Shown: one piece after another, positions 1 to 43,455 of the stretch
How positions within the stretch are numbered: the stretch's first letter is position 1
Layout of the letters: the number at the start of each line of letters is the position of its first letter
Assembly: GCA_009914755.4 (NCBI GenBank)
Contig: CP068257.2
Coordinates: 1,152,001-1,216,000, forward strand
Reading direction: 5' to 3'
DNA from: the human T2T-CHM13v2.0 reference genome, Homo sapiens
DNA length: 64,000 nt
The notes under the pieces: model-generated
Told to the model about the DNA's origin: nothing
Seen by the model: only the letters and a program-made list of their open reading frames with translations
The model's database searches: none
Translations under genes and position numbers: made by a program

Positions 1-3000
1 GAATGAAATGGGAATGAAATGGATTGGATCGGAATATAATCCAATGGAATAAACTGGAATGGAATGGAATGGAATGAAATAAAATGGATTGGATTGGAAT
101 GGAATCCAATAGAATCAACTGGAACGGAATGGAATGGAATATTTCCGGGTGGAGTGGAATGGAATATAATGGAGTGGAATGGAATGGAAATTAGTGGAAT
201 GGAACGGAATGGAATGGAAAGGAATGTAATGTAATGTAATGTAATGTAATGGAATAGAATGGAATGGAAACAACCCGAATGGGATGGCATGGAATAGAAT
301 TGAATGCAATGGAATGGAATGGAATGGAATGGAATGGAATGCAATGGAATCCAGCCGATTGGAATGGAATGGAATGGAATGGAATGGAATGGAATGGAGT
401 GGAATGGAATAAACAGCAGAGGAATGAAATGGATTGGAATGAAATGGAATGGAATGGAATGGAATGAAATCAACCCGAGGGGAATGGAACGGAATGGAAT
501 GGAATGGAAAGGAATGAATGGAAGGGAATGGTGTGGAATCAACACGAGAGGAATGGAATGGAATGGAATGGAACGGAACGGAATGGAAAGGAATGGAATG
601 GAATGAACCCGAATGGAATGGAATGGATTGGAATGGAATGGAATAGAATCAACCTGAGAGGAAAGGAATGGAATGGAATGGAGAGGAATGGAATGTAATG
701 GAATGGAATGCAATGGAATGGAATCAACACGAATGGAATGGAACGGAATGGAATGGGATGGGATGGAATGGAATGGAATGGAAGTTAATCAACACGAATG
801 GAATGGAACGGAATGGAATGGAACGGAATGGAATGGAATGGAATGGAATGGAAAGGAACAGAATGGAATCAACAGGAGTGGAATGGAATGGAACGGAATG
901 GAATCAATCCGAGTGGAATGAAATGGAATGTAATGCAATGAGATGGAGTGGAATCAACCTGAGTGGAATGGAATCGAATGGATTGGAATGGAATGGAATG
1001 GAATGAAATGGAATGGAATAAATCCGGGTGGAGAGGAATGGAATGTAATGGAGTGCAATGTTACGGAATTTAGTGGAATGGAATGGAATGGAATGGAATG
1101 GAATGGAATGGAATGGAATGGAATCGAATGGAATGAAATGGATTGGATCGGAATGGAATCCAATGGAATCAACTGGAATGGAATGGAATGGAATAAATCC
1201 GGGTGGAGTGGAATGGAATGTAATGGAGTGGAATGGAATGGAATTTAGTGGAATGGAATGGAATGGAATGGAATGGAATGGAATGGAATGGAATGAAATG
1301 GAATGGAATCAACCCGAATGGAATGGAATGGAATGGAATGGAAAGGGATGGAATGGAATGGAATGGAATGGAATAGAATGGAATGGAATGGAATGGAATG
1401 GAATGGAATCAACCCAAGTGCAATGGAATGCAATGGAATGCAATGGAATCCACCCGAGTGGAATGGAATGGAATGGAATGGAATATAATGCAATGGAATG
1501 GAATGGAATGGAATGGAATGGAATGGAGTGGAATGGAACTGAATGGAGTGGAATGGAATAAACACCAGGAGAATGAAATGGATTGGAATGAAATGGAATG
1601 GAATGGAATGGAATGGAATGGAATGGAATGAAATCAACCCGAGTGGAATGGAACGGAATGGAATGGAATGGAAAGGAATGAATGGAAGGGAATGGTGTGG
1701 AAACAACACGAGAGGAATGGAATGGAATGGAATGGAAAGAAACGGAATGGAAAGGAATGGAATGGAATGAACCCGAATGGAATGGAATGGATTGGATTGG
1801 AATGGAATGGAATCAACCCGAGCATAAAGGAATGGAACGGAATGGAGTGGAATGGAATGGAATGGAATGGAATGGAATGGAATGGAATGGAATCAACACG
1901 AATGGAATGGAGCGGAATGAAATGGGATGGGATGGAATGGAATGGAATGGAATCAACATGAATGGAATGGAACGTAATGGAAAGGAATGGAATGGAAAAT
2001 AATGGAATGGAATGAACCCGAATGGAATGGAATGCATTGGAATGGAATGGAATGGAATCAACCCGAGCGGAAAGGAATGGAATGGCATGGTGTGGAATGG
2101 AATGTAATGGAATGGAATGGAATGGAATCAACACGAATGGAATGGAACGGAATGGAATGGGATGGGATGGAATGGAATGGAAGGGAAGTTAATCAACACG
2201 AATGGAATGCAACGGAATGGAATGGAATGGAATGGAGTGGAATGAACCCGAATGGAATGGAATGGATTGGAATGGAATGGAATTGAATCAACCCTAGTGG
2301 AAAGGAATGGAATGGAATGGAGTGGAATGTAATGTAATGTAATGGAATGGAATGGAATGGAATCAACACGAATGGAATAGAACGGAATGGAATGGGATGG
2401 GATGGAATGGAATGGAATGGAAGTTAATCAACATGAATGGAATGGAATGTAATGGAATGGAACGGAACGGAATGGAATGGAATGCAATGGAATGGAATGA
2501 AATGGAAAGGAACGGAATGGAATCAACACGAGTGGAATGGAATGGATAGGAATGGAATCAACCCGAGTGAAATGAAATGGAATGTAATGCAATGGGATGG
2601 AGTGGAATCAACCCGAGTGGAATGGAATGGAATGGAATGGAATGGAACGAAATGGAATGGATCGGAATGTAATCCAATGGAATCAACTGGAATGGAATGG
2701 AATGGAATGGAATGGAATAAACCCGGGTGGAGTGGAATGGAATGTAACGGAGTGGAATGTAATGGAATTTAGTGGAATGGAATGGAATGGAATGGAATGA
2801 AATGGATTGGATCGGAATGGAATCCAAAGGAATCAACTGGAATGGAATGGAATGGAATGGAATAAATCCGGGTGGAGTGGAATGGAAAGTAATGGAGTGG
2901 AATGGAATGGATTTTACTGGATGGAATGGAATGGAATGGAATGCAACGGAATGGAATGGAATGGAATGGAATGGAATGGAAAGGAATGGAATCAACCCGA

Positions 3001-4300
3001 ATGGAATGGAACGGAAAGGAATGGAATGGAATGGAATGGAATGGAATGGAATGGAATGGAAAGGAATGGAATGGAATGGAATGGAATCAACCCGAATGGG
3101 ATGGTATGGAATGGAACTGAATGGAATAGAATGGAATGGAATGGAATGGAATGGAATCAACCCAAGTGCAATGGAATGGTTTGGAATGCAATGGAATCCA
3201 CCTGAGTGGAATGGAATGGAATGGAATGGAATGGAATGGAATGGAATGGAGTGGAATGGAACGGAATGGAGTGGAATGCAAGAAACACCAGGGGAATAAA
3301 ATGAATTGGAATGAAATGGAATGGAATGGAATGGAATGGAATGGAATGGAATGAAATCAACCCAAGTGGAATGGAACGGAAAGGAATGGAATGGAAAGGA
3401 ATGAATGGTAAGGAATTGTGTGGAATCAACCCGAGAGGAATGGAATGGAATGGAATGGAATGGAACGGAACGGAATGGAAAGGAATGGAATGGAATGAAC
3501 CCGAATGGAATGGAATGGATTAGAATGGAATGGAATGGAATCAACCCGAGCGGAAAGGAATGGAATGGAATGGAGTGGAATGTAATGTAATGGAATGGAA
3601 TGGAATGGAATGGAATGGAATCAACACAAATGGAATGGAACGGAATGGAATGGGATGGGATGGAATGGTATGGAATGGAAGTTAATCAACACGAATGGAA
3701 TGGAACGGAATGGAATGGAATGGAATGGAAAGGAATGGAATGGAATGGAATGGAATGGAATGGAATGGAATGGAATGGAATGAAATGGAATGGATTGGAA
3801 TGGAATACAATGGAATCAACTGGAATGGAATGGAATGGAATGGAATGGAATGGAATGGAATGAAATGGAATGGATCAGAATGGAATCCAATGGAATCAAC
3901 TGGAATGGAATGGAATGGAATGGACTGCAATTGAATGGAATAAATCTGGGTGCATTGGAATGGAATGTAACGGAGTGGAATGTAATGGAATTTAGTGGAA
4001 TGGAATGGAATGGAATGGAATGGAATGGAATGGAATGGAATGGATTGGATCGGATTGGAATCCAATGGAAGCAACTGGAATGGAATGGAATGGAATGGAA
4101 TTGTATAAATCCGGGTGGAGATGACTGTAATGTAATGCAGGGGAATGGAATGGAATTCAGTGGAATGGAATGGATTGGAATGGATTGGAATGGAATGGAA
4201 TGGAATGGAATGGAATGGAATGGAATGGAATGAAAGGGATAGGATCGGAATGGAATCCAATGGAATCAACTGGAATGGAATGGAATGGAATAAATCCGGG
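1..4300 (+). repeat. Block A of a multi-kb block family (three collinear copies, A, B and C, starting at 1, 7011 and 23531)
   Basis: Positions 1-60 are identical to 7011-7070. The collinear match continues with a drifting offset of 7010, then 7060, 7140 and 7180. ORF pairs are 539..730 versus 7599..7790, 668..1006 versus 7683..8066, 1058.. versus 8198.. and 2437.. versus 9617... The rare marker gagcataaagg sits at 1816, 8956 and 25656. Confidence 0.75.
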
Positions 4301-7010
4301 TGGAGTGGAATGGAATGTAATGGAGTGGAATGGAATGCAATTTAGTGGAATGGAATGGAAAGGAATAGAATGGAATGGAATGGAAAGGAATGGAATGGAA
4401 TCAACCCGAATGGGATGGCATGGAATGGAATTCAATGGAATGGAATGGAATGGACGGTAATGGAATGGAACGGAATGGAATCAACCAAAGTGCAATGGAA
4501 TGGAATGGAATGCAATGGAATCCACCCAAGTGGAATGGAATGGAATGGAATGGAACGGAATGGAATGGAATGGAGTGGAATGGGACGGAATGGAGTGGAA
4601 TTGAATAAACACCAGGGGTATGAAATGGATTGGAAAGAAATGGAATGGAATGGAATGGAATGAAATCAACCCGAGTGGAATGCAACGGAATGGAATGGAA
4701 TGGAAAGGAATGAATGGAATGGAATGGTGTGGAATCAACACGAGAGGAATGGAATGGAATGGAATGGAATGGAATGGAATGGAACGGAACGGAATGGAAA
4801 GGAATGGAATGGAATGAACCCGAATGGAATGGAATGCATTGGAATGGAATGGAATGGAATCAACCCGAGCGGAAAGGAATGGAATGGAATGGAGTGGAAT
4901 GTAATGTAATGGAATGGAATGGAATGGAATGGAATGGAATCAACACAAATGGAATGGAACGGAATGGAATGGGTTAGGATGGAATGGTATGGAATGGAAG
5001 TTAATCAACACGAAGGGAATGGAACGTAATGGAATGGAATGGAATGGAAAGGAATGGAATGGAATTGAATGGAATGAAATGGAAAGGAACGGAATGGAAT
5101 CAACACGAGTGGAATGGAATGGAACGGAATGGAATCAACCCCACTGGAATGAACTGGAATGTAATGCAATGGGATGGAGTGGAATCAACCCGAGTGGAAT
5201 GGAATGGAATGGAAAGGAATGGAATGGAATGAAATGGAATGGATCGGAATGGAATCCAATGGAATCAACTGGAATGGAATGGAATGGAATGGAATGGAAT
5301 GGAATGCAATGGAATGGAATAAATCTGGGTGGAGTGGAATGGAATGAAACGGAGTGGAATGTAATGGAATTTAGTGGAATGGAATGGAATGGAATGGAAT
5401 GGAATGAAATGGATTGGATCGGAATGGAATCCAATGGAATCAACTGGAAAGAAATGGAATGGAATGGAATGGAATAAATCTGGGTGGAGTGGAATGGAAT
5501 GTAATGGAGTGGAATGGAATGGAATTTAGTGGAATGGAATGGAATAGAATGGAATGGAATGGAATGAAATGGATTGGATCGGAATGGAATCCAATGGAAT
5601 CAACTGGAATGGAATGGAATGGAATAAATCCGGGTGGAGTGGAATGGAACGGAATTTAGTGGAATGGAATGGAAAGGAATGGAATGAAATGGAATGGAAT
5701 GGAATGGAATGGAATCAACCCGAGTGGGATGGCATGCAATGGAATTGAATGGAAGGGAATGGAATGGACTGTAATGGAATGGAATGGAAGGGAATCAAAC
5801 CAAGTGCAATGGAATGGAATGGAATGCAATAGAATCCACCCGAGTGGAATGGAATGGAATGGAATGGAATGGAATGAATGTAATGGAATGGGGTGGAATC
5901 AACACGAGAGGAATGGAATGGAATGGAATGGAAAGGAACGGAATGGAAAGGAATGGAATGGAATGATCCCGAATGGAATGGAATGGATTGGAATGGCATG
6001 GAATGGAATCATCCCGAGCGGAAAGGAACGGAATGGAATGGAGTGGAATGGAATGGAATGGAATGGAATGGAATGGAATGGAATCAACACGAATGGAATG
6101 GAACGGAATGGAATGGAATGGGATGGGATGGAATGGAATGGAAGTTAATCAACACGAATGGAATGGAAAGGAATGGAATGGAATGGAATGGAATGGAATG
6201 GAATGGAATGAACCCGAATGCAATGGAATGGATTGGAATTAAACGGAATGGAATCAACCCGAGCGGAAAGGAATGGAATGGAATGGAATGGAATGGAATG
6301 AAAAGGTTTGGATCGGAATGGAATCCAATGGAATGTAATGGAATGGAATGGAATAAATCCGGGTGGAGTGGAATGGAATGCAATGGAGTGGAATGTAACG
6401 GAATTTAGTGGAATGGAATGGAATGGAATGAAATGGATTCGATCGGAATGGAATCCAATGGAATCAACTGGAATGGAATGGAATGGAATGGAATGGAATA
6501 AATCCGGGTGGAGTGGAATGGAATGTAATGGAGTGGAATGGAATGGAATTTAATGGAATGGAATGGAATGGAATGGAATGGAATGGAATGGAATGAAATG
6601 GATTGGATCAGAATATAATCCAATGGGTTAAACTGGAATGGAATGGAATGGAATGGAATGGAATGGAATGGAATGGAATGCAGTGGATCGGAATGGAATC
6701 AAATGGAATCAACTGGAATGGAATGGAATGGAATGGAATGGAATGGAATAAATCCGGGTGGAGTGGAATGGAATGTAATGGAGTGGAATGTAACGGAATT
6801 TAGTGGAATGGAATGGAATAGAATGCAATGGAATGGAATGAAATGGATTGGATCGGAATGGAATCCAATGGAATCAACTGGAATGCAATGGAATGGAATG
6901 GAATGGAATGGAATGGAATGGAATGGAATAAATCCGGGTGGAGTGGAATGTAATATAATGCAGTGGAATGTAATGGAATTTAGTGGAATGGAATGGAATG
7001 GAATGGAATG

Positions 7011-10000
7011 GAATGAAATGGGAATGAAATGGATTGGATCGGAATATAATCCAATGGAATAAACTGGAATGGAATGGAATGGAATGAAATAAAATGGATT
7101 GGATTGGAATGGAATCCAATGGAATCAACTGGAATGGAATGGAATGGAATGGAATGGAATACTTCCGGGTGGAGTGGAATGGAATGTAATGGAGTGGAAT
7201 GGAATGGAATTTAGTGGAATGGAATGGAATGGAATGGAATTAAACCGAGTGGAATGGAACGGAATGGAATGGAAAGGAATGGAATGGAATGGAATGGAAT
7301 GGAATGGAATGGAATGGAATCAACCCAAATGGGATGGCATGGAATGGAATTGAATGCAATGCAATGGAATGGAATGGAATGGAATGCAATGGAATCCACC
7401 CGATTGGAATGGAATGGAATGGAATGGAATGGAATGGAATGGAATGGAGTGGAATGGAATAAACAGCAGAGGAATGAAATGGATTGGAATGAAATGGAAT
7501 GGAATGGAATGGAATGGAATGGAATGAAATCAACCCGAGTGGAATGGAACGGAATGGAATGGAATGGAAAAGAATGAATGGAAGGGAATGGTGTGGAATC
7601 AACACGAGAGGAATGGAATGGAATGGAATGGAACGGAACGGAATGGAAAGGAATGGAATGGAATGAACCCGAATAGAATGGAATGGATTGGAATGGAATG
7701 GAATTGAATCAACCTGAGAGGAAAGGAATGGAATGGAATGGAGAGGAATGGAATGTAATGGATTGGAATGCAATGGAATGGAATCAACACGAATGGAATG
7801 GAACGGAATGGAATGGGATGGGATGGAATGGAATGGAGTGGAAGTTAATCAACACGAATGGAATGGAACGGAATGGAATGGAATGGAATGGAATGGAATG
7901 GAATGAAAGGGAAAGGAACAGAATGGAATCAACAGGAGTGGAATGGAATGGAACAGAATGGAATCAACCCGAGTGGAATGAAATGGAATGTAATGCAATG
8001 AGATGGAGTGGAATCAACCCGAGTGGAATGGAATCGAATGGATTGGAATGGAATGGAATGGAATGAAATGGAATGGATCGGAATGGAATCCAATGGAATC
8101 ACCTGGAATGGAATGGAATGGAATGGAATGGAATGGAATGGAATGGAATGGAATGGAATAAATCCGGGTGGAGTGGAATGGAATGTAATGGAGTGCAATG
8201 TTACGGAATTTAGTGGAATGGAATGGAATGGAATGGAATGGAATGGAATGGAATGGAATGGAATCTAATGGAATGAAATGGATTGGATCGGAATGGAATC
8301 CAATGGAATCAACTGGAATGGAATGGAATGGAATAAATCCGGTTGGAGTGGAATGGAATGTAATGGAGTGGAATGGAATGGAATTTAGTGTAATGGAATG
8401 GAATGGAATGGAATGGAATGGAATGGAATGGAATGGAATGGAATGAAATGGAATGGAATCAACCCGAATGGAATGGAACGGAATGGAATGGAAAGGAATG
8501 GAATGGAATGGAATGGAATGGAATAGAATGGAATGGAATGGAATGGAATGGAATCAACCCAAGTGCAATGGAATGCAATAGAATGCAATGGAATCCACCC
8601 GAGTGGAATGGAATGGAATGGAATGGAATATAATGCAATGGAATAGAATGGAATGGAATGGAATGGAATGGAATGGAGTGGAATGGAACTGAATGGAGTG
8701 GAATGGAATAAACACCAGGAGAATGAAATGGATTGGAATGAAATGGAATGGAATGGAATGGAATGGAATGAAATCAACCCGAGTGGAATGGAACGGAATG
8801 GAATGGAATGGAAAGGAATGAATGGAAGGGAATGGTTTGGAAACAACACGAGAGGAATGGAATGGAATGGAATGGAAAGGAACAGAATGGAAAGGAATGG
8901 AATGGAATGAACCCGAATGGAATGGAATGGATTGGAATGGAATGGAATGGAATCGACCCGAGCATAAAGGAATGGAACGGAATGGAGTGGAATGGAATGG
9001 AATGGAATGGAATGGAATGGAATGGAATGGAATGGAATCAACACGAATGGAATGGAGCGGAATGAAATGGGATGGGATGGAATGGAATGGAATGGAATGG
9101 AATGGAATGGAATGGAATCAACATGAATGGAATGGAACGTAATGGAATGGAATGGAATGGAAAATAATGGAATGGAATGAACCCGAATGGAATGGAATGG
9201 ATTGGAATGGAATGGAATGGAATGGAATCAACCCGAGCGGAAAGGAATGGAATGGCATGGAGTGGAATGGAATGTAATGTAATGGAATGGAATGGAATGG
9301 AATCAACACGAATGGAATGGAACGGAATGGAATGGGATGGGATGTAATGGAATGGAATGGAAGTTAATCAACACGAATGGAATGCAACGGAATGGAATGG
9401 AATGGAATGGAGTGGAATGAACCCGAATGGAATGGAATGGATTGGAATGGAATGGAATTGAATCAACCCTAATGGAAAGGAATGGAATGGAATGGAGTGG
9501 AATGTAATGTAATGTAATGTAATGGAATGGAATGGAATGGAATCAACACGAATGGAATGGAACGGAATGGAATGGGATGGGATGGAATGGAATGGAATGG
9601 AAGTTAATCAACATGAATGGAATGGAATGTAATGGAATGGAACGGAACGGAATGGAATGGAATGGAATGGAATGGAATGAAATGGAAAGGAACGGAATGG
9701 AATCAACATGAGTGGAATGGAATGGATAGGAATGGAATCAACCCGAGTGGAATGAAATGGAATGTAATGCAATGGGATGGAGTGGAATCAACCCGAGTGG
9801 AATGGAATGGAATGGAATGGAACGAAATGGAATGGATCGGAATGTAATCCAATGGAATCAACTGGAATGGAATGGAATGGAATGGAATGGAATAAACCCG
9901 GGTGGAGTGGAATGGAATGTAACGGAGTGGAATGTAATGGAATTTAGTGGAATGGAATGGAATGGAATGGAATGAAATGGATTGGATCGGAATGGAATCC

Positions 10001-10100: not shown

Positions 10101-13100
10101 AATGGAATGGAATGGAATGCAATGGAATGGAATGGAATGGAATGGAATGGAATGGAATGGAATGGAATCAACCCGAATGGAATGGAACGGAAAGGAATGG
10201 AAAGGAATGGAATGGAATGGAATGGAATGGAATGGAATGGAATGGTATAAATCCAGGTGGAGTTGACTGTAATGTAATGCCGTGGAATGGAATGGAATTC
10301 AGTGGAATGGAATGGATTGGAATGGATTGGAATGTAATGTAATGGAATGGAATGGAATGGAATGGAATGGAATGGAATGAAAGGGATAGGATCGGAATGG
10401 AATCCAATGGAATCAACTGGAATGGAATGGAATTGAATAAATCCGGGTGGAGTGGAATGGAATGTAGTGGAGTGGAATGGAATGGAATTTAGTGGAATGG
10501 AATGGAAAGGAATGGAATGGAATGGAATGGAATGGAATGGAATGGAATGGAATGGAATCAGCCCGAATGGGATGGCATGGAATGGAATTCAATGGAATGG
10601 AATGGAATGGAATCAACCCAAGTGCAATGGAATGGAATGGAATGCAATGGAATCCACCCAAGTGGAATGGAATGGAATGGAATGGAACGGAATGGAATGG
10701 AATGGAGTGGAATGGGACGGAATGGAGTGGAATTGAATAAACACAAGGGGAATGAAATGGATTGGAAAGAAATGGAATGGAATGGAATGGAATGAAATCA
10801 ACCCGAGTGGAATGTAACGGAATGGAATGGAATGGAAAGGAATGAATGTAATGGAATGGGGTGGAATCAACACGAGAGGAATGGAATGGAATGGAACGGA
10901 ATGGAATGGAATAAATCCGGGTGGAGTGCAATGGAATGTAATGGAGTGGAATGGAAAGGAATTTAGTGGAATGGAATGGAATGGAATGGAATGGAATGGA
11001 ACGGAATCAACCTGAATGGGTTGGCATGGAATGGAATGGAATGGAGTGGAATGTAATGTAATGTAATGGAATGGAATGGAATGGAATCAACACGAATGGA
11101 ATGGAACGGAATGGAATGGGATGGGATGGAATGGAATGTAATGGAAGTTAATCAAGACGAATGGAATGCAACGGAATGGAATGGAACGGAATGGAATGGA
11201 ATGGAATGAACCCGAATGGAATGGAATGGATTGGAATGGAATGGAATGGAATCAACCCGAGCGGAAAGGAATGGAATGGAATGGAGTGGAATGTAATGTA
11301 ATGGAATAGAATTGAATGGAATGGAATCAACAGGAATGGTATGGAACGGAATGGAATGGGATGAGATGGAATGGATGTTAATCAACACGAATGGAATGGA
11401 ACGGAATGGAATGGAATGGAATGGAATGGAATGGAATGGAATGGAATGAAATGGAATGGATCGGAATGGAATACAATGGAATCAACTGGAATGTAATGTA
11501 ATGGAATGGAATGGAAAGGAATAAATCCGGGTGGAGTGGAATGGAATGTAACGGAGTGGAATGTAAAGGAATTTAGAGGAATGGAATGGAATGGAATGGA
11601 ATGGAATGAAATGGGTTGGATAGGAATGGAATTCAATGGAATCAACTGGAATAGAATGGAATGGAATAGAATGGAATAAATCCGGGTGGAGTGGAATGGA
11701 ATGTAATGGAGTGGAATGGAATGGAATTTAGTGGAATGGAAAGTAATGTACTGGAATATAATGGAATGGAATGGAATCAACCCGAGTGGAAAGGAACGGA
11801 ATGGAATGGAAAGGAATGGAATGGAATGGAATGGAATGGAATGGAATGGAATGGAATCAACCCGAATGGAATGGAACGGAAAGGAATGGAAAGGAATGGA
11901 ATGGAATGGAATGGAATGGAATGGAATGGAATGGAAAGGAATGGAATGGAATGGAATGCAATCAACCCGAATGGGATGGCATGGAATGGAACTGAATGGA
12001 ATAGAATGGAATGGAATGGAATGGAATGGAATGGAATCAACCCAAGTGCAATGGAATGGAATGGAATGCAATGGAATCCACCTGAGTGGAATGGAATGGA
12101 ATGGAATGGAATGGAATGGAATGGAGTGGAATGGAACGGAATGGAGTGGAATGCAAGAAACACCAGGGGAATAAAATGGATTGGAATGAAATGGAATGGA
12201 ATGGAATGGAATGGAATAAAATCAACCCAAGTGGAATGGAACGGAATGGAATGGAATGGAAAGGAATGAATGGTATGGAATGGTGTGGAATCAACACGAG
12301 AGGAATGGAATGGAATGGAATGGAACGGAACGGAATGGAAAGGAATGGAATGGAATGAACCCTAATGGATTGGAATGGATTGGAATGGAATGGAATGGAA
12401 TCAACCCGAGCGGAAAGGAATGGAATGGAATGGAGTGGAATGTAATGGAATGGAATGGAATGGAATGGAATGGAATCAACACAAATGGAATGGTACGGAA
12501 TGGAATGGGATGGGATGGAATGGTATGGAATGGAAGTTAATCAACAAGAATGGAATGGAACGGAATGGAATGGAATGGAATGGAAACGAATGCAATGCAA
12601 TGGAATGCAATGGAATGGAATGGAATGGAATGGAATGAAATGGAATGGAATGGAATGGAATCAAAACGAATGGAATGGACTGCAATTGAATGGAATAAAT
12701 CTGGGTGCATTGGAATGGAATGTAACGGAGTGGAATGTAATGGAATTCAGTGGAATGGCATGGAATGGAATGGAATGGAATGGAATGGAATGGATTGGAT
12801 CGGATTGGAATCCAATGGAAGCAACTGGAATGGAATGGAATGGAATGGAATGGTATAAATCCGGGTGGAGTAGACTGTAATGTAATGGAGTGGAATGGAG
12901 TGGAATTCAGTGGAATGGAATAGATTGGAATGGATTGGAATATAATGGAATGGAATGGAATGGAATGGAATGCAATGAAAGGGATTGGATCGGAATGGAA
13001 TCCAATGGAATCAACTGGAATGGAATGGAATGGAATACATCCGGGTGGAGTGGAATGGAATGTAATGGAGTGGAATGGAATGGAATTTAGTGGAATGGAA

Positions 13101-16100
13101 TGGAATGGAATGGAATGGAATGGAACGGAATGGAATGGAATGGAATCAACCCGAGTGGAATGGAATGGATTGGAATGGAAAGGAATGGAATTGAATGGAA
13201 TGCAATGGAATGGAATCAACCCGAATGGGATGGCATGGAATGGAAAGGAATGGAATGGAATGGAATGGAATGGAATGGAATCAAAACGAATGGAATGGAA
13301 CGGAATGGAATGGGATGGGATGGAATGGAATGGAATGGAAGTAAATCAACACTAATGGAATGGAACGGAATGGAATGGAATGGAATGGAATGAACCCGAA
13401 TAGAATGGAATGGATTCGAATGGAATGGAATTGAATCAACCCGAGCGGAAAGGAATGGAATGGAATGTAGTGGAATGGAATGTAATGGAATGGAATGGAA
13501 CGGAATGGAATCAACACGAGTGGAATGGAATGGAACGGAATGGAATCAACCCGAGTGGAATGAAATGGAACGTAATGCAATGGGATGGAGTGGAATCAAC
13601 CTGAGTGGAATGGAATGGAATGGCATGGAATGGAACGGAATGAAAGGGAATGAAATGGAATGGATCGGAATAGAATCCAATGGAATCACCTGGAATGGAA
13701 TGGAATGGAATGGAATGGAATGGACTCGAATGCAATGGAATGGAATAAATCCGGGTGGAGTGGAAAGGAATATAATGGAGTGGAATGTAATGGAATTTAG
13801 AGGAATGGAATGGAATGGAATGGAATGGAATGGAAAGTAATGGAATGAAATTGATTGGATAGGAATGGAATCCAATGGAATCAACTGGAATGGAATCAAT
13901 GGAATGGAATGGAATAAATCCGGGTGGAGTGGAATGGAATGTAATGGAGTGGAATGGAATGGAATTTAGTGGAATGGAATGGAATGGAATGGAATGGAAT
14001 GAAATGGAATGGAATCATCCCGAGTGGAATGGAATGGAATGGAATGGAAAGGAATGGAATGGAATGGAATGGAATGGAATGGAATGGAATCAACCCCAGT
14101 GGAATGGAACAGAATGGAATGGAAATGAATAGAATGGAATTGAATTGAATGGAATGGAATGGAATCAACCCGAATGGGATGGCATGGAATGGAATGGAAT
14201 GGAATGGAATGGATTGGAAAGGAATGGAATGTAGTCAACCCAAGTGCAATGGAATGGAATGGAATGCAATGGAATCCACACGAGTGGAATGGAATGGAAT
14301 AGAATGGAATGGAATGGAATGGAATGGAATGGAATGGAATAAATCCGGGTGGAGTGGAATGAAATGTAATGGAGTGGAATGGAATGGAATTTAGGGGAAT
14401 GGAACAGAATGGAATGGAATGGAATGGAATGGAATGGAATGGAATGGATTGGAATGAAATGGATTGGATCGGAATGGAATCCAATGGAATCAACTGGAAT
14501 GGAATGGAATGGAATGGAATGCAATAAATCCGGGTGGAGTGGAATGGAATGTAATGGAGTGGAATGGAATGGAATTTAGTGGAATAGAATGGAATGGAAT
14601 GGAAAGAAATGGATTGGATCGGAATGGAAGCCAATGGAATCAACTGGAATGGAATGGAATGGAATGGAATGGAATGGAATGGAATGGAATGGAATAAATC
14701 CGGGTGGAGTGGAATGGAAAGTAATGGAGTGGAATGTAATGGAATTTAGTGGAATGGAATTGAATGGAATGGAATGGAATGGAATGGAATCAAACCGAAT
14801 GGATTGGAACGGAATGGAATGGAATGGAATGGAATGGAATCAACACGAATGGGATGGCATGGAATGGAATTGAGTGAAATGGAATGGAATGGAATGGAAT
14901 GGAATGGAATGGAATGGAATGGAATGGAATCAACCCGAATGGGATGGAATGTAATGGAATGGAATGGAATGGTATGGAATGGAATGGAATCATCCCAAGT
15001 GCAATGGAATGGAATGGAATGCAATGGAGCCACCCGAGTGGAATGGAATGGAATGGAGTAGAATGGAACGGAATGGAGTGGAATGGAATAAACACCAGGG
15101 GAATGAAATGGATTGGAATGAAATGGAATGGAATGGAATGAAATCAACCTGAGTGGAATGGAACGGAATGGAATGGAATGGAAAGGAATGAATGGAAGGG
15201 AATGGTGTGGAATCAACACGAGAGGAATGGAATGGAATGGAATGGAACGGAACGGAATGGAAAGGAATGGAATGGAATGAACCCGAATGGAATGGAATGG
15301 ATTGGAATGGAATGGAATTGAATCACCCCGAGCGGAAAGGAATGGAATGGAATGGAGTGGAATGGAATGAAATGGAAAGGAACAGAATGGAATCAACACG
15401 AGTGGAATGGAATGGAACGGAATGGAAACAACCCGAGTGGAATGAAATGGAATATAATTCAAAGGGATGGACTGGAATCAACCCGAGTGGAATGGAATGG
15501 AATGGAATGGAATGAAATGGAATGGATCGGAATGGAATCCAATGGAATCAACTGGAATGGAATGGAATGGAATGGAATGGAATGGAATAAATCCGGGTGG
15601 AGTGGAATGGAATGCAATGGAGTGGAATGTAATGGAAATTAGTGGAATGGAATGGAATGGAATGGAATGGAATGGAAAGAAATGGATTGGATAGGAATGG
15701 AACCCAATGGAATCAACTGGAATTGAATGGAATGGAGTAAATCCGGGTGGAGTGGAATGGAATGTAATGCAATGGAATGGAATGGAATTTAGTGGAATGG
15801 AATGGAATGGAATGGAAAGGAATGGAATGGAATGGATTGGAATCAACCCGAGTGGAGTGGAACGGAATGCAATGGAAAGGAAAGGAATGGAATGGAATGG
15901 AATGGAATGGAATGGAATGGAATGGAATCAACCCGAATGGGATGGAATGTAATGGAATGGAATGGAATGGAATGGAATGGAATGGAATGGTATGCAATGG
16001 AATGGAATCATCCCAAGTGCAATGGAATGGAATGGAATGCAATGGAGCCACCCGAGTGGAATGGAATGGAATGGAATGGAATGGAATGGAATGGAATGGA

Positions 16101-18148
16101 CTGGAATGGAACGGAATGGAGTGGAATGGAATAAACACCAGGGGAATGAAATGGATTGGAATGAAATGGAATGGAATGGAATGGAATGGAATGAAATCAA
16201 CCCGAGTGGAATGGAAGGGAATGGAATAGAATGGAAAGGAATGAATGGAAGGGAATGGTGTGGAATCAACACGAGAGGAATGGAATGGAATGGAATGGAA
16301 CAGAAAGGAATGGAAAGGAATGGAATGCAATGAACCCGAATGGAATGGAATGGATTGGAATGGAATGGAATTGAATCACCCCGAGCGGAAAGGAATGGAA
16401 TGGCATGGAGTGGAATGGAATGGAATGGAATGTAATGGAATGGAATGGAATGGAATGGAATCAACACGAATGGAATGGACCGGAATGGAATGCGATGGGA
16501 TGGAATGGAATGGAATGGAAGTTAATCAACACGAATGGAATGGAACGGAATGGAATGGAATGGAATGGAATGGAATGAACCCGAATGGAATGGAATGGAT
16601 TGGAATGGAATGGAATGGAATCAACCCGAGCGGAAAGGAATGGAATGGAATGGAGTGGAATGGAATGAAATGGAATGGAATGGAATGGAATGTAAACAAC
16701 ACGAATGGAATGGAATGGAATGGAATGGAATGGAATGGAATGGAATGGGATGGAATGGAATGGAATGCAAGTTAATCAACATGAATGGAATGGAACGGAA
16801 TGGAATGGAATGGAATGGAATGGAAAGGAATGAATGGATGGGAATGGTGTGGAATCAACACGAGAGTAATGGAATCGAATGGAATGGAACGGAACGGAAT
16901 GGAAAGGAATGGAAAGGAATGAACCCGAATGGAATGGAATGGATTGGAATGGAATGGAATTGAATCAACCCGAGCGGAAAGGAATGGAATGGAATGGAGT
17001 GGAATGGAATGGAATGGAATGGAATGGAATGGAATCAACACGAATGGAAAGGAACGGAATGGAATGGGATGGGATAGAATGGAATGGAATGGAAGTTAAT
17101 CAACACGAATGGAATGGAACGGAATGGAATGAAATGGAATGGAATGAAATGGAAAGGAACAGAATGGAATCAACACGAGTGGAATGGAATGGAACGGAAT
17201 GGAATCAACCCGAGTGGAATGAAATGGAATGTAATTCAAAGGGATGGAGTGGAATCAACCCGAGTGGAATGGAATGGAATGGAATGGAATGAAATGGAAT
17301 GGATCGGAATGGAATCCAATGGAATCAACTGGAATGGAATGGAATGGAATGGAATGGAATGGGATAAATCCGGGTGGAGTGGAATGGAATGCAATGGAGT
17401 GGAATGTAATGGAATTTAGTGGAATGGAATGGAATGGAATGGAATGGAATGGAATGGAATGGAATGGAATGAAATGGATTGGATAGGAATGGAACCCAAT
17501 GGAATCAACTGGAATTGAATGGAATGGAATAAATCCGGGTGGAGTGGAATGGAATGTAATGGAGTGGAGTGGAATGGAATTTAGTGGAATGGAATGGAAT
17601 GGAATGGAATGGAATGGAATCAACCCGAGTGGAATGGAACGGAATGCAATGGAAAGGAATGGAATGGGATGGAATGGAATGTAATCAACCCGAATGGGAT
17701 GGCATGTAACGGAATGGAATGGAATGGAATGGAATGGTATGGAATGGAATGGAATCATCCCAAGTGCAATGGAATGGAAAGGAATGCAATGGAGCCACCC
17801 GAGTGGAATGGAATGGAATGGAGTGGAATGGAATGGAGTGGAATGTAACGGAATGGATTGGAATGGAATAAACACCAGGGGAATGAAATGGATTGGAATG
17901 AAATGGAATGGAATGGAATGGAATGGAATGAAATCAACCCGAGTGGAATGGAACGGAATGGAATGGAATGGAAAGGAATGAATGGAAGGGAATGGTGTGG
18001 AATCAACACGAGAGTAATGGAATGGAATGGAATGGAACGGAACGGAATGGAAAGGAATGGAAAGGAATGAACCCGAATGGAATGCAATGGATTGGAATGG
18101 AATGGAATTGAATCAACCGGAGCGGAAAGGAATGGAATGGAATGGAGT

Positions 18149-18188: not shown

Positions 18189-21100
18189 GGAATCAACACG
18201 AATGGAATGGAACGGAATGGAATGGGATGGGATGGAATGGAATGGAATGGAAGTTAATCAACACGAATGGAATGGAACGGAATGGAATGGAACGGAATGG
18301 AATGGAATGAACCCGAATGGAATGGAATGGATTGGAATGGAATGGAATGGAATCAACCCGAGCGGAAAGGAATGGAATGAAATGGAGTGGAATGGAATGG
18401 AATGGAATGGAATGGAATGGAAACAACACGAATGGAATGGAACGGAATGGAATGGGATGGGATGGAATGGAATGGAATGCAAGTAAATCAACACGAATGG
18501 AATGGAACAGAATGGAATGGAATGGAATGAAATGCAAAGGAAAGGAATGGAATCCACACGAGTGGAATGGAATGGAACGGAATGGAAACAAACCAGAGTG
18601 GAATGAAATGGAATGTAATGCAATGGGATGGAGTGGAATCAACCCGAGTGGAATAGAATGGAGTGGAACGGAATGAAATGAAATGGATCGGATTGGAATC
18701 CAGTGGAGTCAACTGGAATGGAATGGAATGGAATGTAATCGAATGGAATGGAATGGAGTGGAATGGAATGGAATAAATCCGGGTTGAGTGGAATGGAATG
18801 AAATGGAGTGGAATGTAATGGAATTTAGTGGAATGGAATGGAATGGAATGGAATGGAATGGAATGGAATGGAATCAACCCGAGTGGAATGCAACGGAATG
18901 CAACGGAAAGGAATGGAATGGAATGGAATGGAATGGAATGGAATGGAATGGAATGGATTGGAATGGAACGGAATGCAGTGGAATGGAATAAACACCAGGG
19001 GAATGAAATGGATTGGAATGAAATGGAATGGAATGGAATGGAATGGAATGAAATCAACCCGAGTGGAATGGAACGGAATGGAATGGAATGGAAAGGAATG
19101 AATGGAAGGGAATGGTGTGGAATCAACACGAGAGTAATGGAATGGAAAGGAATGGAACTGAACGGAATGGAAAGGAATGGAAAGGAATGAACCCGAATGG
19201 AATGCAATGGATTGGAATGGAATGGAATTGAATCAACCCGAGCGGAAAGGAATGGAATGGAATGGAGTGGAATGTAATGTAATGTAATGTAATGTAATGT
19301 AATGGAATGGAATGGAATGGAATGGAATCAACACGAATGGAATGGAACGGAATGGAATGGGATGGGATGGAATGGAATGGAATGGAATGGAAGTTAATCA
19401 ACACGAATGGAATGGAACGGAATGGAATGAAATGGAATGGAATGGAATGAACCCGAATGGAATGGAATGGATTGGAATGGAATGGAATGGAATCAACCCG
19501 AGCGGAAAGGAATGGAATGGAATGGAGTGGAACGGAATGGAATGGAATGGAATGCAAGTTAATCAACACGAATGGAATGGAACGGAATGGAATAGAATGG
19601 AATGTAATGGAATGAAATGGAAAGGAACGGAATGGAATCAACACGAGTGGAATGGAATGGAACGGAATGGAATCAACAAGAGTGGAATGAAATGGAATGT
19701 AATGCAATGGGATGGAGTGGAATCAACACGAGTGGAATAGAATGGAATGGAACGGAATGAAATGGAATGGATCGGATTGGAATCCAGTGGAGTCAACTGG
19801 AATGGAATGGAATGGAATGGAATGGAATGGAATGGAAAGGAATGGAATGGAATAAATCCGGGTGGAGTGGAATGGAAAGTAATGGAGTGGAATGGAATGG
19901 AATTTAGTGGAATGGAATGGAATGGAATGGAATGGAGTCAACACGAGTGGATTGGAACAGAATGGAATGGAAAGGAATGGAATGGAATGGAATGGAATCA
20001 ACCTGAATGGGATGGCATGGAATGGAATTGAATGGAATTGAATGGAATGGAATGGAATGGAATGGAATCAACCCAAGTGCAATGGAATGGAATAGAATGC
20101 AATGGAATCCACTCGAGTGGAATGGAATGGAATGGAATGGAGTCGAATGGAACGGAATGTAGTGGAATGGAGTAAACACCAGGGGAATGAAATGGATTGG
20201 AATGAAATGATATGGAATGGAATGGAATGGAATGAAATCAACCCGAATGGAATGGAACGGAATGGAATGGAATGGAATGGAAAGGAATGAATGGAACGGA
20301 ATGGTGTGGAATCAACACGAGAGGAATGGAATTGAATGGAATGGAATGGAACGGAATGGAAAGGAATGGAAAGGAATGAACCCGAATGGAATGGAATGGA
20401 ATGGAATGGAATGGAATGGAATGGAATGGAATGGAATGGAATGGAATCAACCCGAGCGGAAAGGAATGGATTGGAATGGAGTGGAATGGAATCTAATGTA
20501 ATGTAATGGAATGGAATGGAATCAACACAAATGGAATGGAACGGAATGGAATGGGATGGGATGGAATGGAATGGAATGGAATTTAATCAACACGAATGGA
20601 ATGGAACGGAATGAAATGGAACGGAATGGAATGGAAAGGAATGGCATGGAATGGAATGGAATGAAATGGAAACAAGCGGCATGGAATCAACACGACTGGA
20701 ATGGAATGGAATGTAATGCAATGGGATTGAGTGGAATCAACCAGTGTGGAATGGAATGGAATGGAATGGAATGGAATGGAATGAAATGGAATGGATCGGA
20801 ATGTAATCCAATGGAATCAACTGGAATGTAATCTAATGGAATGGAATCGAATGGAATGAAATGGAATGTATCGGAATGTAATCCAATGGAATCAACTGTA
20901 ATGTAATGTAATGTAATGGAATGGAATGGAATAAACCCGGGTGGAGTGGAATGGAATGTAATGGAGTGGAATGTAATGGAAGTTATTGGAATGGAATGGA
21001 ATGGAATGGAATAGACTGGATCAGAATGGAATCCAATGGAATCAACTGGAATGGAATGGAACGGAATGGAATGGAATAAATCCGGGTGGAGTAGAATGGA

Positions 21101-23530
21101 ATGTAATGGAGTGGAATGGAATGGAATTTAGTGGAATGGAATGGAATGGAATGGAATGGAATGGAATGGAATAAATCCGGGTGGAGTGGAATGGAATGTA
21201 ATGGAATGGAAAGGAATGGAATTTAGTGGAATGGAATGGAATGGAATTTAATGGAATGGAATGGAATCAATCCGAGGGCATGGAACGGAATGGAATGGAA
21301 AGGAATGTAACGTAATGGAATGGAATGGAATGGAATGGAATGGAATGGAATCAACCCGAATGGGATGGCATGGAATGGAATTGAATGGAATAGAATGGAA
21401 TGGAATGGAACGGAATGGAGTCAACCCAAGTGCAATGGAATGGAATGGAGTGCAATGGAAAAGAATGGAATGCAATGGAATCCACCCGAGTGGAATGGAA
21501 TGGAATGGAATGGAATGGAATGGAATGGAATGGAATGGAATGGAAAGGAATGGAGTGGAATGGAACGGAATGGAATATAATGGAATCAACACGAATGGAA
21601 TGGAACGGAATGGAATGGAATGGAATGGAATGGAATGGAATGGAATGAACCCGAATGGAATGTAATGGAATGGAATGGAATAGAATGGAATCAACGTGAG
21701 CGGAAAGGAATGGAATGGAATTGAGTGGAATGGAATGGAATGGAATGGAATGGAATGGAATCAACACGAATGGAATGGAACGGAATGGAATGGGATGGGA
21801 TGGAATGGAATGGAATGGAAGTTAATCAACACGAATGGAATGGAACGGAATGGAATGGAATGGAATGGAATGGAATGAAATGGAAAGGAAAAGAATGGAA
21901 TCAACACGAGTGGAATGGAATGGAACGGAATGTAATCAACCCGAGTGGAATGAAATGGAATGTAATTCAAAGGGATGGAGTGGAATCAACCCGAGTGGAA
22001 TGGAATGGAATGGAATGGAATGGAATGGAATGGAATCAAACCAAGTGCAATGGAATGGAATGGAATGCAATGGAATCCACCCGAGTGGAATGGAATGGAA
22101 TGGAACGGAATGGAATGGATTGGAATGGAATGGAATGGAATGGAATGGAATGGAATGAAATAAACCCGAGTGGAATGCAACGGAATGGAATGGAATGGAA
22201 AGTAATGAATGTAATGGAATGAGGTGGAATCAACATCAGAGGAATGGAATGGAACGGAATGGAACAGAATGGAATGGAAAGGAATGGAATGGAATGAACC
22301 CGAATGGAATGGAATGGAATGGAATGGAATAGAATGGAATCAACCCGAGCGGAAAGGAATGTAATGGAATGGAGTGGAATGTAATGTAATGTAAAGGAAT
22401 GGAATGAAATAGAATCAACACGAATGGAATGGAACGCAATGGAATGGGATGGGATGGAATGGAATGGAATGGAAGTTAATCAACACGAACGGAATGGAAC
22501 GGAATGGAATGGAATGGAGTGGAAAGGAACGGAATGGAGTGGAATGCAATAAACACCAGGGGAATGAAATGGATTAGAATGAAATGGAATGGAATGGAAT
22601 GGAATCAACCCGAATGGGATGGCATGGAACGGAATTGAATGGAACGGAATGGAATGGACTGTAATGGAAAGGAATGGAATGGAATCAAACCAAGTGCAAT
22701 GGAATGGAATGGAATGCAATGGAATCCACCCGAGTGGAATGGAATGGAATGGAATGGAATGGAATGGAATGGAATGGAATGGAATGGAAGGGAGTGGAAT
22801 GGAACGGAATGGAGTGGAATGCAATAAACACCAGGGGAATGAAATGGATAGGAAAGAAATGGAATTGGAATGGAATGGAATGGAATGAAATCAACCCGAG
22901 TGAAATGCAAAGGAATGGAATGGAATGGAAAGGAATGAATGTAATGGAATGAGGTGGAATCAACACGAGAGGAATGGAATGGAATGGAATGGAAAGGAAC
23001 GGAATGGAAAGGAATGGAATGGAATGATCCCGAATGGAATGGAATGGATTGGAATGGAATGGAATGGAATCAACCCGAGCGGAAAGGAATGGAAAGGAAT
23101 GGAATGGAATGGAATGGAATGGAATGGAATGGATTGGAATTGAATGGAATGGAATCAACCCGAGCGGAAAGGAATGGAATGGAATGGAACGGAATGAAAA
23201 GGATTGGAGCGGAATGGAATCCAATGGAATAAACTGGAATGGAATGGAATAGAATGGAATGAAACAAATCCGGGTGGAGTGGAATGGAATGTAATGGAGT
23301 GGAATGTAACGGAATTTAGTGGAATGGAATGGAATGGAATGGAATGGAATGGAATGAAATGGATTTGATCGGAATGCAATCCAATGGAATCAACTGGAAA
23401 GGAATGGAATGGAATGGAATGGAATAAATACGGGTGGAGTGGAATGGAATGTAATGGAGTGGAATGGAATGGAATTTAGTGGAATGGAATGGAATGGAAT
23501 GGAATGGAATGGAATGGAACGAAATGGATT

Positions 23531-43407: not shown

Positions 43408-43455
43408 GGAGTGGAATGGAATAAACACCAGGGAAATGAAATGGATTGGAATGAA
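43408..43455 (+). repeat. Start of a truncated third copy of the 6.65-kb unit (about 50-100 bp) before the sequence diverges
   Basis: 43351-43455 (..ggagtggaatggaataaacaccagggaaatgaaatggattggaatgaaatg) matches 36697-36804. From 43456 the sequences diverge: gaatggaatggaataaatccgg here versus taatggaatttaatgg at the start of copy 2. Confidence 0.7.

What the first reader, a model, noticed from the sequence alone, without database searches (positions are those of the whole stretch)
1556..1600. Conserved non-pentameric landmark recurring 39 times
The motif (A)ATAAACACCAGGGGAATGAAATGGATTGGAATGAAATGG is much better conserved than the surrounding pentamers. I located it at about 1561, 3292, 4615, 8711, 10740, 12164, 15091, 16134, 17871, 18991, 20175, 22552, 22826, 24192, 25411, 27175, 28245, 29031, 30116, 31084, 33404, 34582, 34936, 36770, 37738, 40058, 41236, 41590, 43424, 45014, 49130, 50388, 53038, 53384, 53874, 56881, 57211, 61203 and 63554. 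Spacings cluster near 1.05-1.12, 1.3-1.4, 1.73 and about 4 kb. Each copy is followed after about 100 bp by AATGAAATCAACCCGAGTGG..GGAAAGGAATGAATGG..GGTGTGGAATCAACACGAGAGG. It behaves like the punctuation of the higher-order unit. It could be a subfamily-diagnostic signature, or a constrained site such as a protein-binding or nucleosome-positioning site.
Basis: seen in the sequence. Interest (0 to 1): 0.5.

Follow-up and report, generated by a model that had tools for sequence, protein, structure and literature searches.

The report
Subfamily marker block in human satellite 3
The recurring 39-base motif is real, but it is an ordinary mutated stretch of human satellite 3 DNA (subfamily HSat3B4) copied along with an irregular kilobase-sized repeat unit, and nothing indicates a specially protected or functional site.

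Summary
ATAAACACCAGGGGAATGAAATGGATTGGAATGAAATGG occurs 41 times, all on the + strand, with 3 or fewer mismatches. No copy has 4-5 mismatches, and none is expected by chance.

The window is a (GGAAT)n array of human satellite 3. It holds 51 exact copies of the published HSat3B4-specific 24-mer and none of the markers of the other 13 subfamilies.

The motif keeps the 5-bp register. It is a three-substitution derivative of the HSat3 decamer (CAACACGAGA type) followed by variant pentamers. It sits about once per irregular nested repeat unit, in the order N-m-L-c-K-e-g. Local periods are 0.83, 1.1-1.7 and 6.65 kb.

"Much better conserved" is not supported. The motif differs from consensus at 2.75% of sites, against 3.2% for canonical pentamer columns and 3.9% for non-CpG flanks. 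It ranks 45th of 257 windows, and its non-pentameric core differs at 3.7%. Other landmarks recur exactly more often. About a quarter of unit junctions lack it, and one such unit has been amplified.

Outside the window it co-occurs with the HSat3B4 marker and is absent from contigs of other subfamilies. It is a subfamily signature propagated neutrally. A constrained-site reading has no support.

The parts
409..447 (+).
1558..1596 (+). L copy at the finding's coordinates, 1 mismatch
3281..3319 (+). L copy, 3 mismatches
4605..4643 (+). L copy, 2 mismatches
7459..7497 (+).
8708..8746 (+). L copy, 1 mismatch, same variant as 1558
10737..10775 (+). L copy, 2 mismatches
12156..12194 (+). L copy, 2 mismatches
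15088..15126 (+). L copy, exact
16131..16169 (+). L copy, exact; head of the representative unit 16131-17867
17868..17906 (+). L copy, exact
18988..19026 (+). L copy, exact
20172..20210 (+). L copy, 2 mismatches
22549..22587 (+). L copy, 1 mismatch; truncated 275-bp unit, no K
22824..22862 (+). L copy, 2 mismatches
24189..24227 (+). L copy, 1 mismatch
25407..25445 (+). L copy, 2 mismatches
27171..27209 (+). L copy, 2 mismatches
28235..28273 (+). L copy, 1 mismatch
29029..29067 (+). L copy, 3 mismatches
30113..30151 (+). L copy, 1 mismatch
31081..31119 (+). L copy, exact
33400..33438 (+). L copy, exact
34578..34616 (+). L copy, exact; truncated 355-bp unit, no K
34933..34971 (+). L copy, exact
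36767..36805 (+). L copy, 2 mismatches; 6654-bp duplicate of 30113
37735..37773 (+). L copy, exact; duplicate of 31081
40054..40092 (+). L copy, exact; duplicate of 33400
41232..41270 (+). L copy, exact; duplicate of 34578, no K
41587..41625 (+). L copy, exact; duplicate of 34933
43421..43459 (+). L copy, 1 mismatch; third partial copy of the 6654-bp repeat, no K
45010..45048 (+). L copy, 1 mismatch
49127..49165 (+). L copy, exact
50376..50414 (+). L copy, 1 mismatch, no K
53035..53073 (+). L copy, 2 mismatches, no K
53370..53408 (+). L copy, 1 mismatch, no K
53860..53898 (+). L copy, 1 mismatch
56879..56917 (+). L copy, exact; truncated 330-bp unit, no K
57209..57247 (+). L copy, exact
61202..61240 (+). 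L copy, 2 mismatches
63551..63589 (+). L copy, exact
16007..16059 (+). Upstream once-per-unit landmarks N (CpG-decayed decamer ..CCCAAGTGCAATGG) and m (CCACCCGAGT) of the representative unit
16233..16271 (+). K landmark of the representative unit (GGAAAGGAATGAATGG..GGTGTGGAATCAACA). It holds a 4-bp GAAT that shifts the pentamer register. 42 copies in the window.
16131..17867 (+). One representative nested repeat unit (1737 bp): L c k e g a a j e g a a j k .. i j c c (f d b)n .. h o n m
30021..43477 (+). Recent tandem duplication, period 6654 bp, 2.02 copies, 99.8% identity; 5 L copies per copy
45064..47600 (+). Sub-array of 829/834-bp units that contain K but no L (right end approximate)

Best explanation
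The window is a one-strand array of human satellite 3, subfamily HSat3B4. It is built from GGAAT pentamers interspersed with the family's 10-bp element (CAACCCGAGT and variants).

The 39-mer (L) is one diverged block of that architecture. AAACACCAGG lies three substitutions from the CAACACGAGA-type decamer. It is followed, in the same 5-bp register, by the pentamer variants GGAAT GAAAT GGATT GGAAT GAAAT.

Inferred origin: these mutations arose once in an ancestral kilobase-sized nested tandem repeat unit with the order N-m-L-c-K-e-g...(f-d-b)n...h-N-m. They have since been copied passively by unequal crossing-over, segmental duplication and conversion.

Inferred reason for the apparent conservation: the amplifications are recent (concerted evolution), the motif contains no CpG, and being strongly non-pentameric it is easy to recognise by eye. 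Site-specific selection is not needed to explain it.

Shown here: the recurrence, the register, the unit order, the subfamily marker, the flank-level divergence, and tolerated loss. Inferred: the neutral mode of spread and the single origin.
For: - Identity of the array. GGAAT occurs 7178 times against 2 for ATTCC. CAACCCGAGT-type decamers are abundant. A published review describes satellite III as pentamers interspersed with a specific 10-bp sequence (PMC8125562).
- Subfamily. There are 51 exact copies of the top HSat3B4-specific 24-mer from Table 1 of PMC4022460, and 0 for the 13 other subfamilies.
- L is a discrete family of 41 copies.
- The decamer-type string map shows L once per unit, in a fixed order after N-o-m and before c-j-k-j-e-g.
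- The L decamer is 3 mismatches from the k and i type decamers. The L tail shares GGATT, at the same offset, with the abundant e block.
- Divergence of L is at flank level: 2.75% against 3.2-3.9%, ranks 45 and 35 of 257. CpG columns reach 11.9% and L has no CpG. The L core is more variable than its tail.
- Variants in L are shared by copies related through large duplications: 409 with 7459, 1558 with 8708, and 3281 with 12156 and 27171. Mutations are inherited, not purged.
- Loss is tolerated and amplified. 9 of 42 K copies have no L. Nine N-m junctions lack L. An 830-bp sub-array has no L.
- Period changes locally. The T2T centromere preprint describes the same behaviour for HSat2,3 nested tandem repeats (10.1101/2021.07.12.452052).
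- Outside the window the same N..L..K context recurs. K follows in 45 of 51 evaluable copies and N precedes in 40 of 49. The only markers seen in those contigs are 3B4 (28 contigs) and 3A4 (1 contig).
Against: - L is still somewhat less diverged than the average flank, about 0.7 times the non-CpG rate. The region from mid-L to about +45 is the least diverged stretch of the junction, at 1.4-1.8%.
- No intermediate, decayed L copies exist. Copies have 3 or fewer mismatches or are structurally absent. Weak purifying selection would also produce this pattern.
- Ascertainment by the motif itself biases its divergence downwards, so the comparison cannot be made fully clean within one window.
- No complete human or ape assembly could be searched. 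Subfamily specificity rests on 65 contaminant contigs.
Confidence: 0.87

Rival explanations
1. L is a sequence-specific protein-binding site, for example for a zinc-finger protein, kept by selection in each repeat unit. Its CACCAGGGG overlaps the 5' part of the CTCF core consensus CCASYAGRKGGC (consensus recalled from my own knowledge, not tested with a matrix).
For: - L is a discrete motif with 41 copies and no intermediates.
- Its divergence is slightly lower than the mean flank.
- It shares nine contiguous bases with the CTCF core (sequence; consensus from memory).
Against: - The putative core is the most variable part of L, at 3.7% against 2.0% for the tail. Substitutions fall on positions that would be critical, G13A four times and changes at G14 twice.
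- The GGC half of the CTCF core is missing; L has AAT there.
- Divergence lies within the flank range, rank 45 of 257.
- Units without L persist and amplify.
- The ENCODE-to-T2T re-analysis reports CTCF enrichment at TAR and DXZ4, and describes HSat3 as H3K9me3 heterochromatin (10.1101/2021.05.26.443420).
- No paper in the library holds the motif string.
Confidence: 0.04
2. L is a nucleosome-positioning or chromatin-phasing element that sets the register of chromatin along the array.
For: It breaks the monotonous pentamer run and recurs on one strand only. Methylation that is periodic with the repeat unit has been reported for another HSat3 array, the 1.8-kb unit on chr15.
Against: - Spacings range from 275 to 4117 bp with no common multiple near a nucleosome repeat length.
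- Stretches of 4 kb have no L.
- About 15 other decamer-type interruptions occur roughly every 60 bp, so L is not a unique break.
- Neither strand shows single-strand structure beyond shuffled controls.
Confidence: 0.02
3. L marks a preferred breakpoint for unequal exchange, and that is why it sits at unit boundaries.
For: - 8 of 41 L copies have a non-canonical downstream partner.
- The right end of the 6654-bp duplication lies about 56 bp after L at 43421 and its left end about 92 bp before L at 30113.
- Mini-units of 275-355 bp consist of L-c joined to N-m.
- Five junctions join N-m to an e-g block. This fits exchange between the similar L and e blocks.
Against: K shows the same proportion of non-canonical neighbours, 9 of 42, so the effect is not specific to L. 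Calling L the unit boundary is a labelling choice for a tandem repeat. The breaks lie in the adjoining pure pentamer runs, which occur throughout the unit.
Confidence: 0.05
4. The recurrence is an assembly or sequencing artefact, such as collapsed or mis-polished satellite.
For: Satellite arrays are error-prone. A 99.8% identical 6.65-kb tandem duplication is present.
Against: The same motif, in the same N..L..K context, appears in 48 independently assembled short-read contigs from many unrelated metagenome projects. Copies in the window carry distinct, inherited variants.
Confidence: 0.01

Closest known systems
Human satellite 3, subfamily HSat3B4 (Altemose et al. 2014, PMC4022460)
   Same: The array is a GGAAT pentamer array with the 10-bp CAACCCGAGT-type element. 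It holds 51 exact copies of the subfamily's most common specific 24-mer. External contigs that carry the motif carry the same marker.
   Different: Nothing contradicts membership. Only the single published top 24-mer was available, not the full marker set. The chromosome (13, 14, 21 or 22 in that paper) could not be determined.
Nested tandem repeats (NTRs) of HSat2,3 (Altemose et al., T2T centromere maps, 10.1101/2021.07.12.452052); e.g. the 1.8-kb HSat3 unit on chr15, 3.6-kb DYZ1, 1.77-kb HSat2 on chr1
   Same: Kilobase-scale units are made of diverged short repeats and recognised through rare k-mers that recur once per unit. Periodicity changes locally along the array.
   Different: The unit here is much less regular. 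Spacing runs from 275 to 4117 bp and local periods are 0.83, 1.1-1.7 and 6.65 kb. This fits the 2014 paper: five subfamilies showed its ring-like repeat-unit signature and HSat3B4 is not among them, with inconsistent repeat units offered as a possible reason.
CENP-B box in alpha satellite (a short protein-binding motif recurring in a satellite)
   Same: Both are short motifs that recur at a fixed place in a satellite repeat unit.
   Different: The CENP-B box has a known binding protein (CENP-B), and there is published work on its selective conservation (known to me and from the preprint listed, which I did not read). L shows flank-level divergence, a variable core, tolerated loss and no known binder. 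The resemblance is one of form only.

Membership tests
Human satellite 3 (HSat3) | Array based on the pentamer GGAAT/ATTCC | tested here: met
   7178 GGAAT on the + strand, about 56% of bases. TRF reports period 5 across the tested 9 kb.
Human satellite 3 (HSat3) | Pentamers interspersed with a specific 10-bp element (CAACCCGA[A/G]T) | tested here: met
   CAACCCGAGT, CAACCCGAAT and close variants occur hundreds of times, with roughly one C-rich island per 60 bp. The definition is quoted from PMC8125562; the exact decamer sequence is from my own knowledge (Prosser et al. 1986).
HSat3B4 subfamily (Altemose 2014) | Presence of subfamily-specific 24-mers and absence of those of other subfamilies | tested here: met
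   The top 3B4 24-mer occurs 51 times exactly. The top 24-mers of the 13 other HSat2,3 subfamilies occur 0 times exactly. Only one 24-mer per subfamily was available.
HSat3B4 subfamily (Altemose 2014) | Location on acrocentric chromosomes 13, 14, 21, 22 | not testable with these tools
   No human assembly is among the searchable collections.
Nested tandem repeat (NTR) of HSat2,3 | Kilobase-scale repeat unit superimposed on the short repeat, detectable as a k-mer interval periodicity | tested here: met
   Nearest-neighbour 20-mer intervals peak at 830/835, 970-1320, 1735-1765, 3910-3930 and 6655 bp, depending on position. The block order is fixed in the string map.
Constrained protein-binding box within a satellite (CENP-B-box-like) | Motif conserved clearly above its flanking repeat sequence | tested here: not met
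   2.75% against 3.2-3.9%, rank 45 of 257. The core is more variable than the tail.
Constrained protein-binding box within a satellite (CENP-B-box-like) | Occupancy by a specific protein | not testable with these tools
   No chromatin data are available. No literature hit for the motif string.
CTCF site | Match to the full core consensus, including the GGC half | tested here: not met
   Only CACCAGGGG matches, and it is followed by AAT instead of GC. This was compared by eye against a consensus recalled from memory; no matrix scan was possible.

The most novel reading that the evidence does not exclude
The CpG-free stretch of about 60-100 bp that runs from the second half of the motif into the pentamers after it is the least diverged part of the unit junction. 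It could be under weak constraint as a binding or phasing site for a heterochromatin or zinc-finger protein specific to the HSat3B4 arrays of the acrocentric chromosomes.
Probability: 0.04. Interest if true: 0.55.

Novelty: already known. Interest (0 to 1): 0.1.

Why it matters
It matters little biologically. The motif is an ordinary diverged block of a known satellite subfamily, and it behaves as expected for a nested tandem repeat evolving by unequal exchange.

It has some practical use. The 39-mer is strongly non-pentameric and CpG-free, and in the small sample tested it is linked to HSat3B4. It could therefore serve, together with the K landmark, as an anchor k-mer. Possible uses are decomposing HSat3B4 arrays into units, probe or guide design, and flagging human satellite contamination in microbial assemblies.

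The analysis also shows why exact recurrence seen by eye is a poor proxy for constraint in satellites.

Tried and rejected
- regex BESTMATCH fuzzy search gave misleading output. I replaced it with a full Hamming scan.
- A first MAFFT alignment of ±250 bp around all 41 copies inflated flank divergence, because pentamer registers and truncated units were misaligned. I redid it on 29 non-redundant L+K junctions and used only well-aligned columns.
- A regex anchor for N..m found nothing and was replaced by a simpler core.
- TRF cannot see periods above 500 bp. I used k-mer interval histograms instead.
- The motif gave no hit in viral contigs or bacterial and archaeal genome contigs.
- There were no Rfam matches in the window.
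- Neither strand at L shows single-strand DNA structure beyond shuffled controls.
- The motif string is absent from the paper library and from the held supplements of Altemose 2014.
- No literature supports CTCF at HSat3.
- Protein, structure and homology tools were not used. The ORFs here are stop-free pentamer frames, not genes.
Full report
**What is there**

The whole 64-kb window is a one-strand pentamer satellite. GGAAT occurs 7178 times and its complement ATTCC twice. Composition is uniform, with GC 0.41-0.43 and GC skew about 0.7 throughout, and there are no inserted elements. TRF reports a 5-bp period over the 9 kb tested.

The pentamers are interrupted about every 60 bp by C-containing islands. 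Most of these are the classical satellite III 10-bp element and its variants: CAACCCGAGT, CAACACGAAT, GAACCCGAAT, CCACCCGAGT and others. This matches the published description of satellite III as well-conserved pentamers interspersed with a specific 10-bp sequence (PMC8125562).

[quoted passage not shown] 2014 (PMC4022460). The HSat3B4 marker (AAATCCGGGTGGAGTGGAATGGAA on this strand) occurs 51 times exactly. The markers of all other subfamilies occur zero times. The array is therefore HSat3B4, which that paper places mainly on chromosomes 13, 14, 21 and 22. I could not test the chromosome.

**Checking the observation**

The 39-mer ATAAACACCAGGGGAATGAAATGGATTGGAATGAAATGG (L) has 41 matches at 3 or fewer mismatches, all on the + strand, against 0 in shuffles. 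A full Hamming scan shows a clean gap: 16, 11, 12 and 2 sites at 0, 1, 2 and 3 mismatches, none at 4-5, then the pentamer background from 6 upward. No reverse-strand copy exists.

It missed 409 and 7459, which share the variant ATAAACAGCAGAGG.

Spacings run from 275 to 4117 bp.

K has 42 copies at 4 or fewer mismatches, and none at 5-7. It follows L at +92 to +127 in 33 of 41 cases.

**Anatomy**

L keeps the 5-bp register of the array: GGAAT|AAACA|CCAGG|GGAAT|GAAAT|GGATT|GGAAT|GAAAT|GGAAT. Its first part differs by three substitutions from the CAACACGAG[A/T] decamers of the same array. Its tail shares the GGATT variant, at the same offset, with the abundant e block (ATGAACCCGAATGGAATGGAATGGATTGG). 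So L is a diverged decamer-plus-pentamers block, not foreign sequence. The real break of the pentamer register is the 4-bp GAAT inside K.

I coded each decamer type as a letter and wrote the array as a string. A recurring order appears: L c j k j e g a j a ... i j c c (f d b)n ... h j h n o m j, then L again. L occurs about once per unit. The landmarks N (CpG-decayed decamer CAACCCAAGTGCAATGG), m and K do the same. The e-g-a-j-a and f-d-b sub-blocks are repeated a variable number of times inside units.

The period is not constant. Nearest-neighbour k-mer intervals peak at 1.1-1.3 kb in some 8-kb segments and at 830/835 bp at 40-48 kb. They peak at 3.9 kb at 48-56 kb, and at 6655 bp where a 6654-bp segment is tandemly duplicated (30021-43477, 99.8% identity).

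This is the behaviour described for nested tandem repeats of HSat2,3, whose periodicity varies along an array (10.1101/2021.07.12.452052). It also fits the 2014 paper. Five subfamilies showed a ring-like repeat-unit signature there and HSat3B4 is not among them. The paper suggests that short or inconsistent repeat units may explain the subfamilies lacking that signature.

**Is L better conserved than its surroundings?**

Selecting copies by the motif biases the answer, so I used junctions that have both L and K. I removed the four copies that belong to the recent 6654-bp duplicate and realigned 29 junctions.

| Column class | Mismatch to consensus |
|---|---|
| L | 2.75% |
| All flank columns | 4.3% |
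| CpG flank columns | 11.9% |
| Non-CpG flank columns | 3.9% |
| Canonical GGAAT columns | 3.2% |
| Non-canonical, non-CpG columns | 5.2% |

- L has no CpG.
- L ranks 45th of 257 sliding 39-column windows. The least diverged window lies 18 bp further on, where it covers the second half of L plus plain pentamers.
- Counting alternative alleles per column depends less on inherited copies. On that measure L has 0.49 against 0.67 in non-CpG flanks, rank 35 of 257.
- Within L the non-pentameric part (positions 1-14) is more variable than the tail, 3.7% against 2.0%.
- Across the 33 L+K junctions L has 35 mismatches and K has 58, out of 1287 positions each.
- Other non-pentameric 39-mers recur exactly more often than L: 40-42 copies against 16.

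L is thus at the well-conserved end of the normal range, by a factor of about 0.7. It is not "much better conserved".

**Loss is tolerated**

- Nine of 42 K copies have no L upstream.
- Nine junctions anchored on the upstream N-m pair lack L, and each absence is structural. At 5800, m is joined directly to K. At 22041, the decamer is missing while GGATT remains, which looks like a 30-bp in-frame deletion. At 14240 and 21426, other blocks follow. At 33021, 39675, 43732, 48758 and 52666, N-m is followed by an e-g block in place of L-c-K.
- The stretch 45,010-49,127 has no L after the copy at its left end. It contains three units of about 830 bp, each with K.
- Variants inside L are shared by copies related through larger duplications: 409 with 7459, 1558 with 8708, and 3281 with 12156 and 27171. 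Mutations in L are passed on when segments are duplicated.

**Outside the window**

The motif gave no hit in viral contigs or in bacterial and archaeal genome contigs. It did hit 48 metagenome contigs. These are human host contamination: one record is named as a human gut metagenome, and L043 ends in an Alu.

- They hold 57 L copies: 35 exact, 20 with one mismatch and 2 with two.
- K follows at +87 to +117 in 45 of 51 evaluable copies, and the N core lies upstream in 40 of 49.
- 28 contigs carry the HSat3B4 marker, one carries the 3A4 marker, and none carries any other.

As a control I fetched 17 generic HSat3 contaminant contigs from bacterial assemblies (14.5 kb; markers 3B5 in 10 contigs, 3A6 and 3B3 in one each). 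They contain no L and no K. At the density seen in the window, about 9 L copies would be expected. The sample is small, but it points to a subfamily-linked motif, not one ubiquitous in HSat3.

In a few contigs (L006, L011, L012, L015, L039) the L-c-K-e block abuts GGAGT-rich HSat3, which in L006 and L015 also carries Alu fragments. In L043 it abuts unique AT-rich DNA. Short-read assemblies of repeats can be chimeric, so I only note this.

**Mechanism**

The best-supported account is passive. L arose as a few substitutions in one decamer block of the ancestral HSat3B4 unit. It has been carried along by unequal exchange, segmental duplication and conversion. Its recurrence as an exact string reflects recent amplification, absence of CpG, and absence of length variation inside the block.

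The rival readings find no support.
- Protein-binding site. The CACCAGGGG overlap with the 5' half of the CTCF core (from my own knowledge) lacks the GGC half. It also falls in the most variable part of L.
- Nucleosome phasing. The spacing is too irregular.
- Breakpoint hotspot. K has the same share of non-canonical neighbours as L.
- Other checks. No single-strand structure, no RNA family and no literature mention of the motif were found.

**Verdict**

The "subfamily signature / unit marker" reading is supported, in a weaker form. The feature belongs to a known satellite subfamily and a known kind of repeat organisation. Interest is low.

Noticed in passing
window 30021-43477: Very recent tandem duplication with a 6654-bp period, 2.02 copies, 99.8% identity. 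It accounts for 11 of the 41 motif copies and for the strongest k-mer offset in the window.
   Followed up: partly
window ~45064-47600 (K at 45137, 45966, 46800); also 46836-47884 vs +3923: A sub-array of 829/834-bp units has the K landmark but no L. A ~3.92-kb repeat copies part of it to ~50.7-51.8 kb. Repeat period changes over a few kb.
   Followed up: partly
window 5800, 14240, 21426, 22041, 33021, 39675, 43732, 48758, 52666: These unit junctions carry the upstream N-m landmarks but no L. The states are m joined directly to K, an apparent 30-bp in-frame deletion that keeps GGATT, two junctions where other blocks follow, and five junctions where an e-g block replaces L-c-K. The last fits unequal exchange between the similar L and e blocks.
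   Followed up: partly
window, 42 K copies, e.g. 16233-16271: The K landmark contains a 4-bp GAAT unit (GGAAAGGAATGAATGG) that shifts the pentamer register by one base. K, not L, is the true out-of-register punctuation of the unit.
   Followed up: partly
29 aligned junctions (window-wide): Columns in consensus CpG dinucleotides are about 3 times more diverged than other columns (11.9% against 3.9%). This is as expected for methylated heterochromatin. The N landmark CAACCCAAGT looks like a CpG-to-CpA derivative of CAACCCGAGT.
   Followed up: partly
L006, L011, L012, L015, L039, L043 (metagenome contigs): The L-c-K-e block abuts GGAGT-rich HSat3; L006 and L015 also carry Alu 3' fragments, and L015 holds the HSat3A4 marker. 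In L043 it abuts AT-rich unique DNA that ends in an Alu. These may be array edges or composite units on acrocentric arms, or short-read chimeras.
   Followed up: no
L049-L065 (GTDB representative bacterial assemblies): 17 contigs in bacterial and archaeal species-representative genome assemblies are human HSat3, mostly the 3B5 type. Examples are Paenibacillus tyrfis MSt1, Thermomonas alba SYSU G04536 (3 contigs), Actinomadura cremea JCM 3308 and Micromonospora sp. NPDC050200. This is human contamination in public records.
   Followed up: no
window 2558-3544 (-), 24442-25410 (+), 33754-34704 (-), 40408-41358 (-) and others: Stop-free pentamer reading frames give ORFs of 262-328 aa on both strands. 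These would be called as spurious proteins by gene finders.
   Followed up: no
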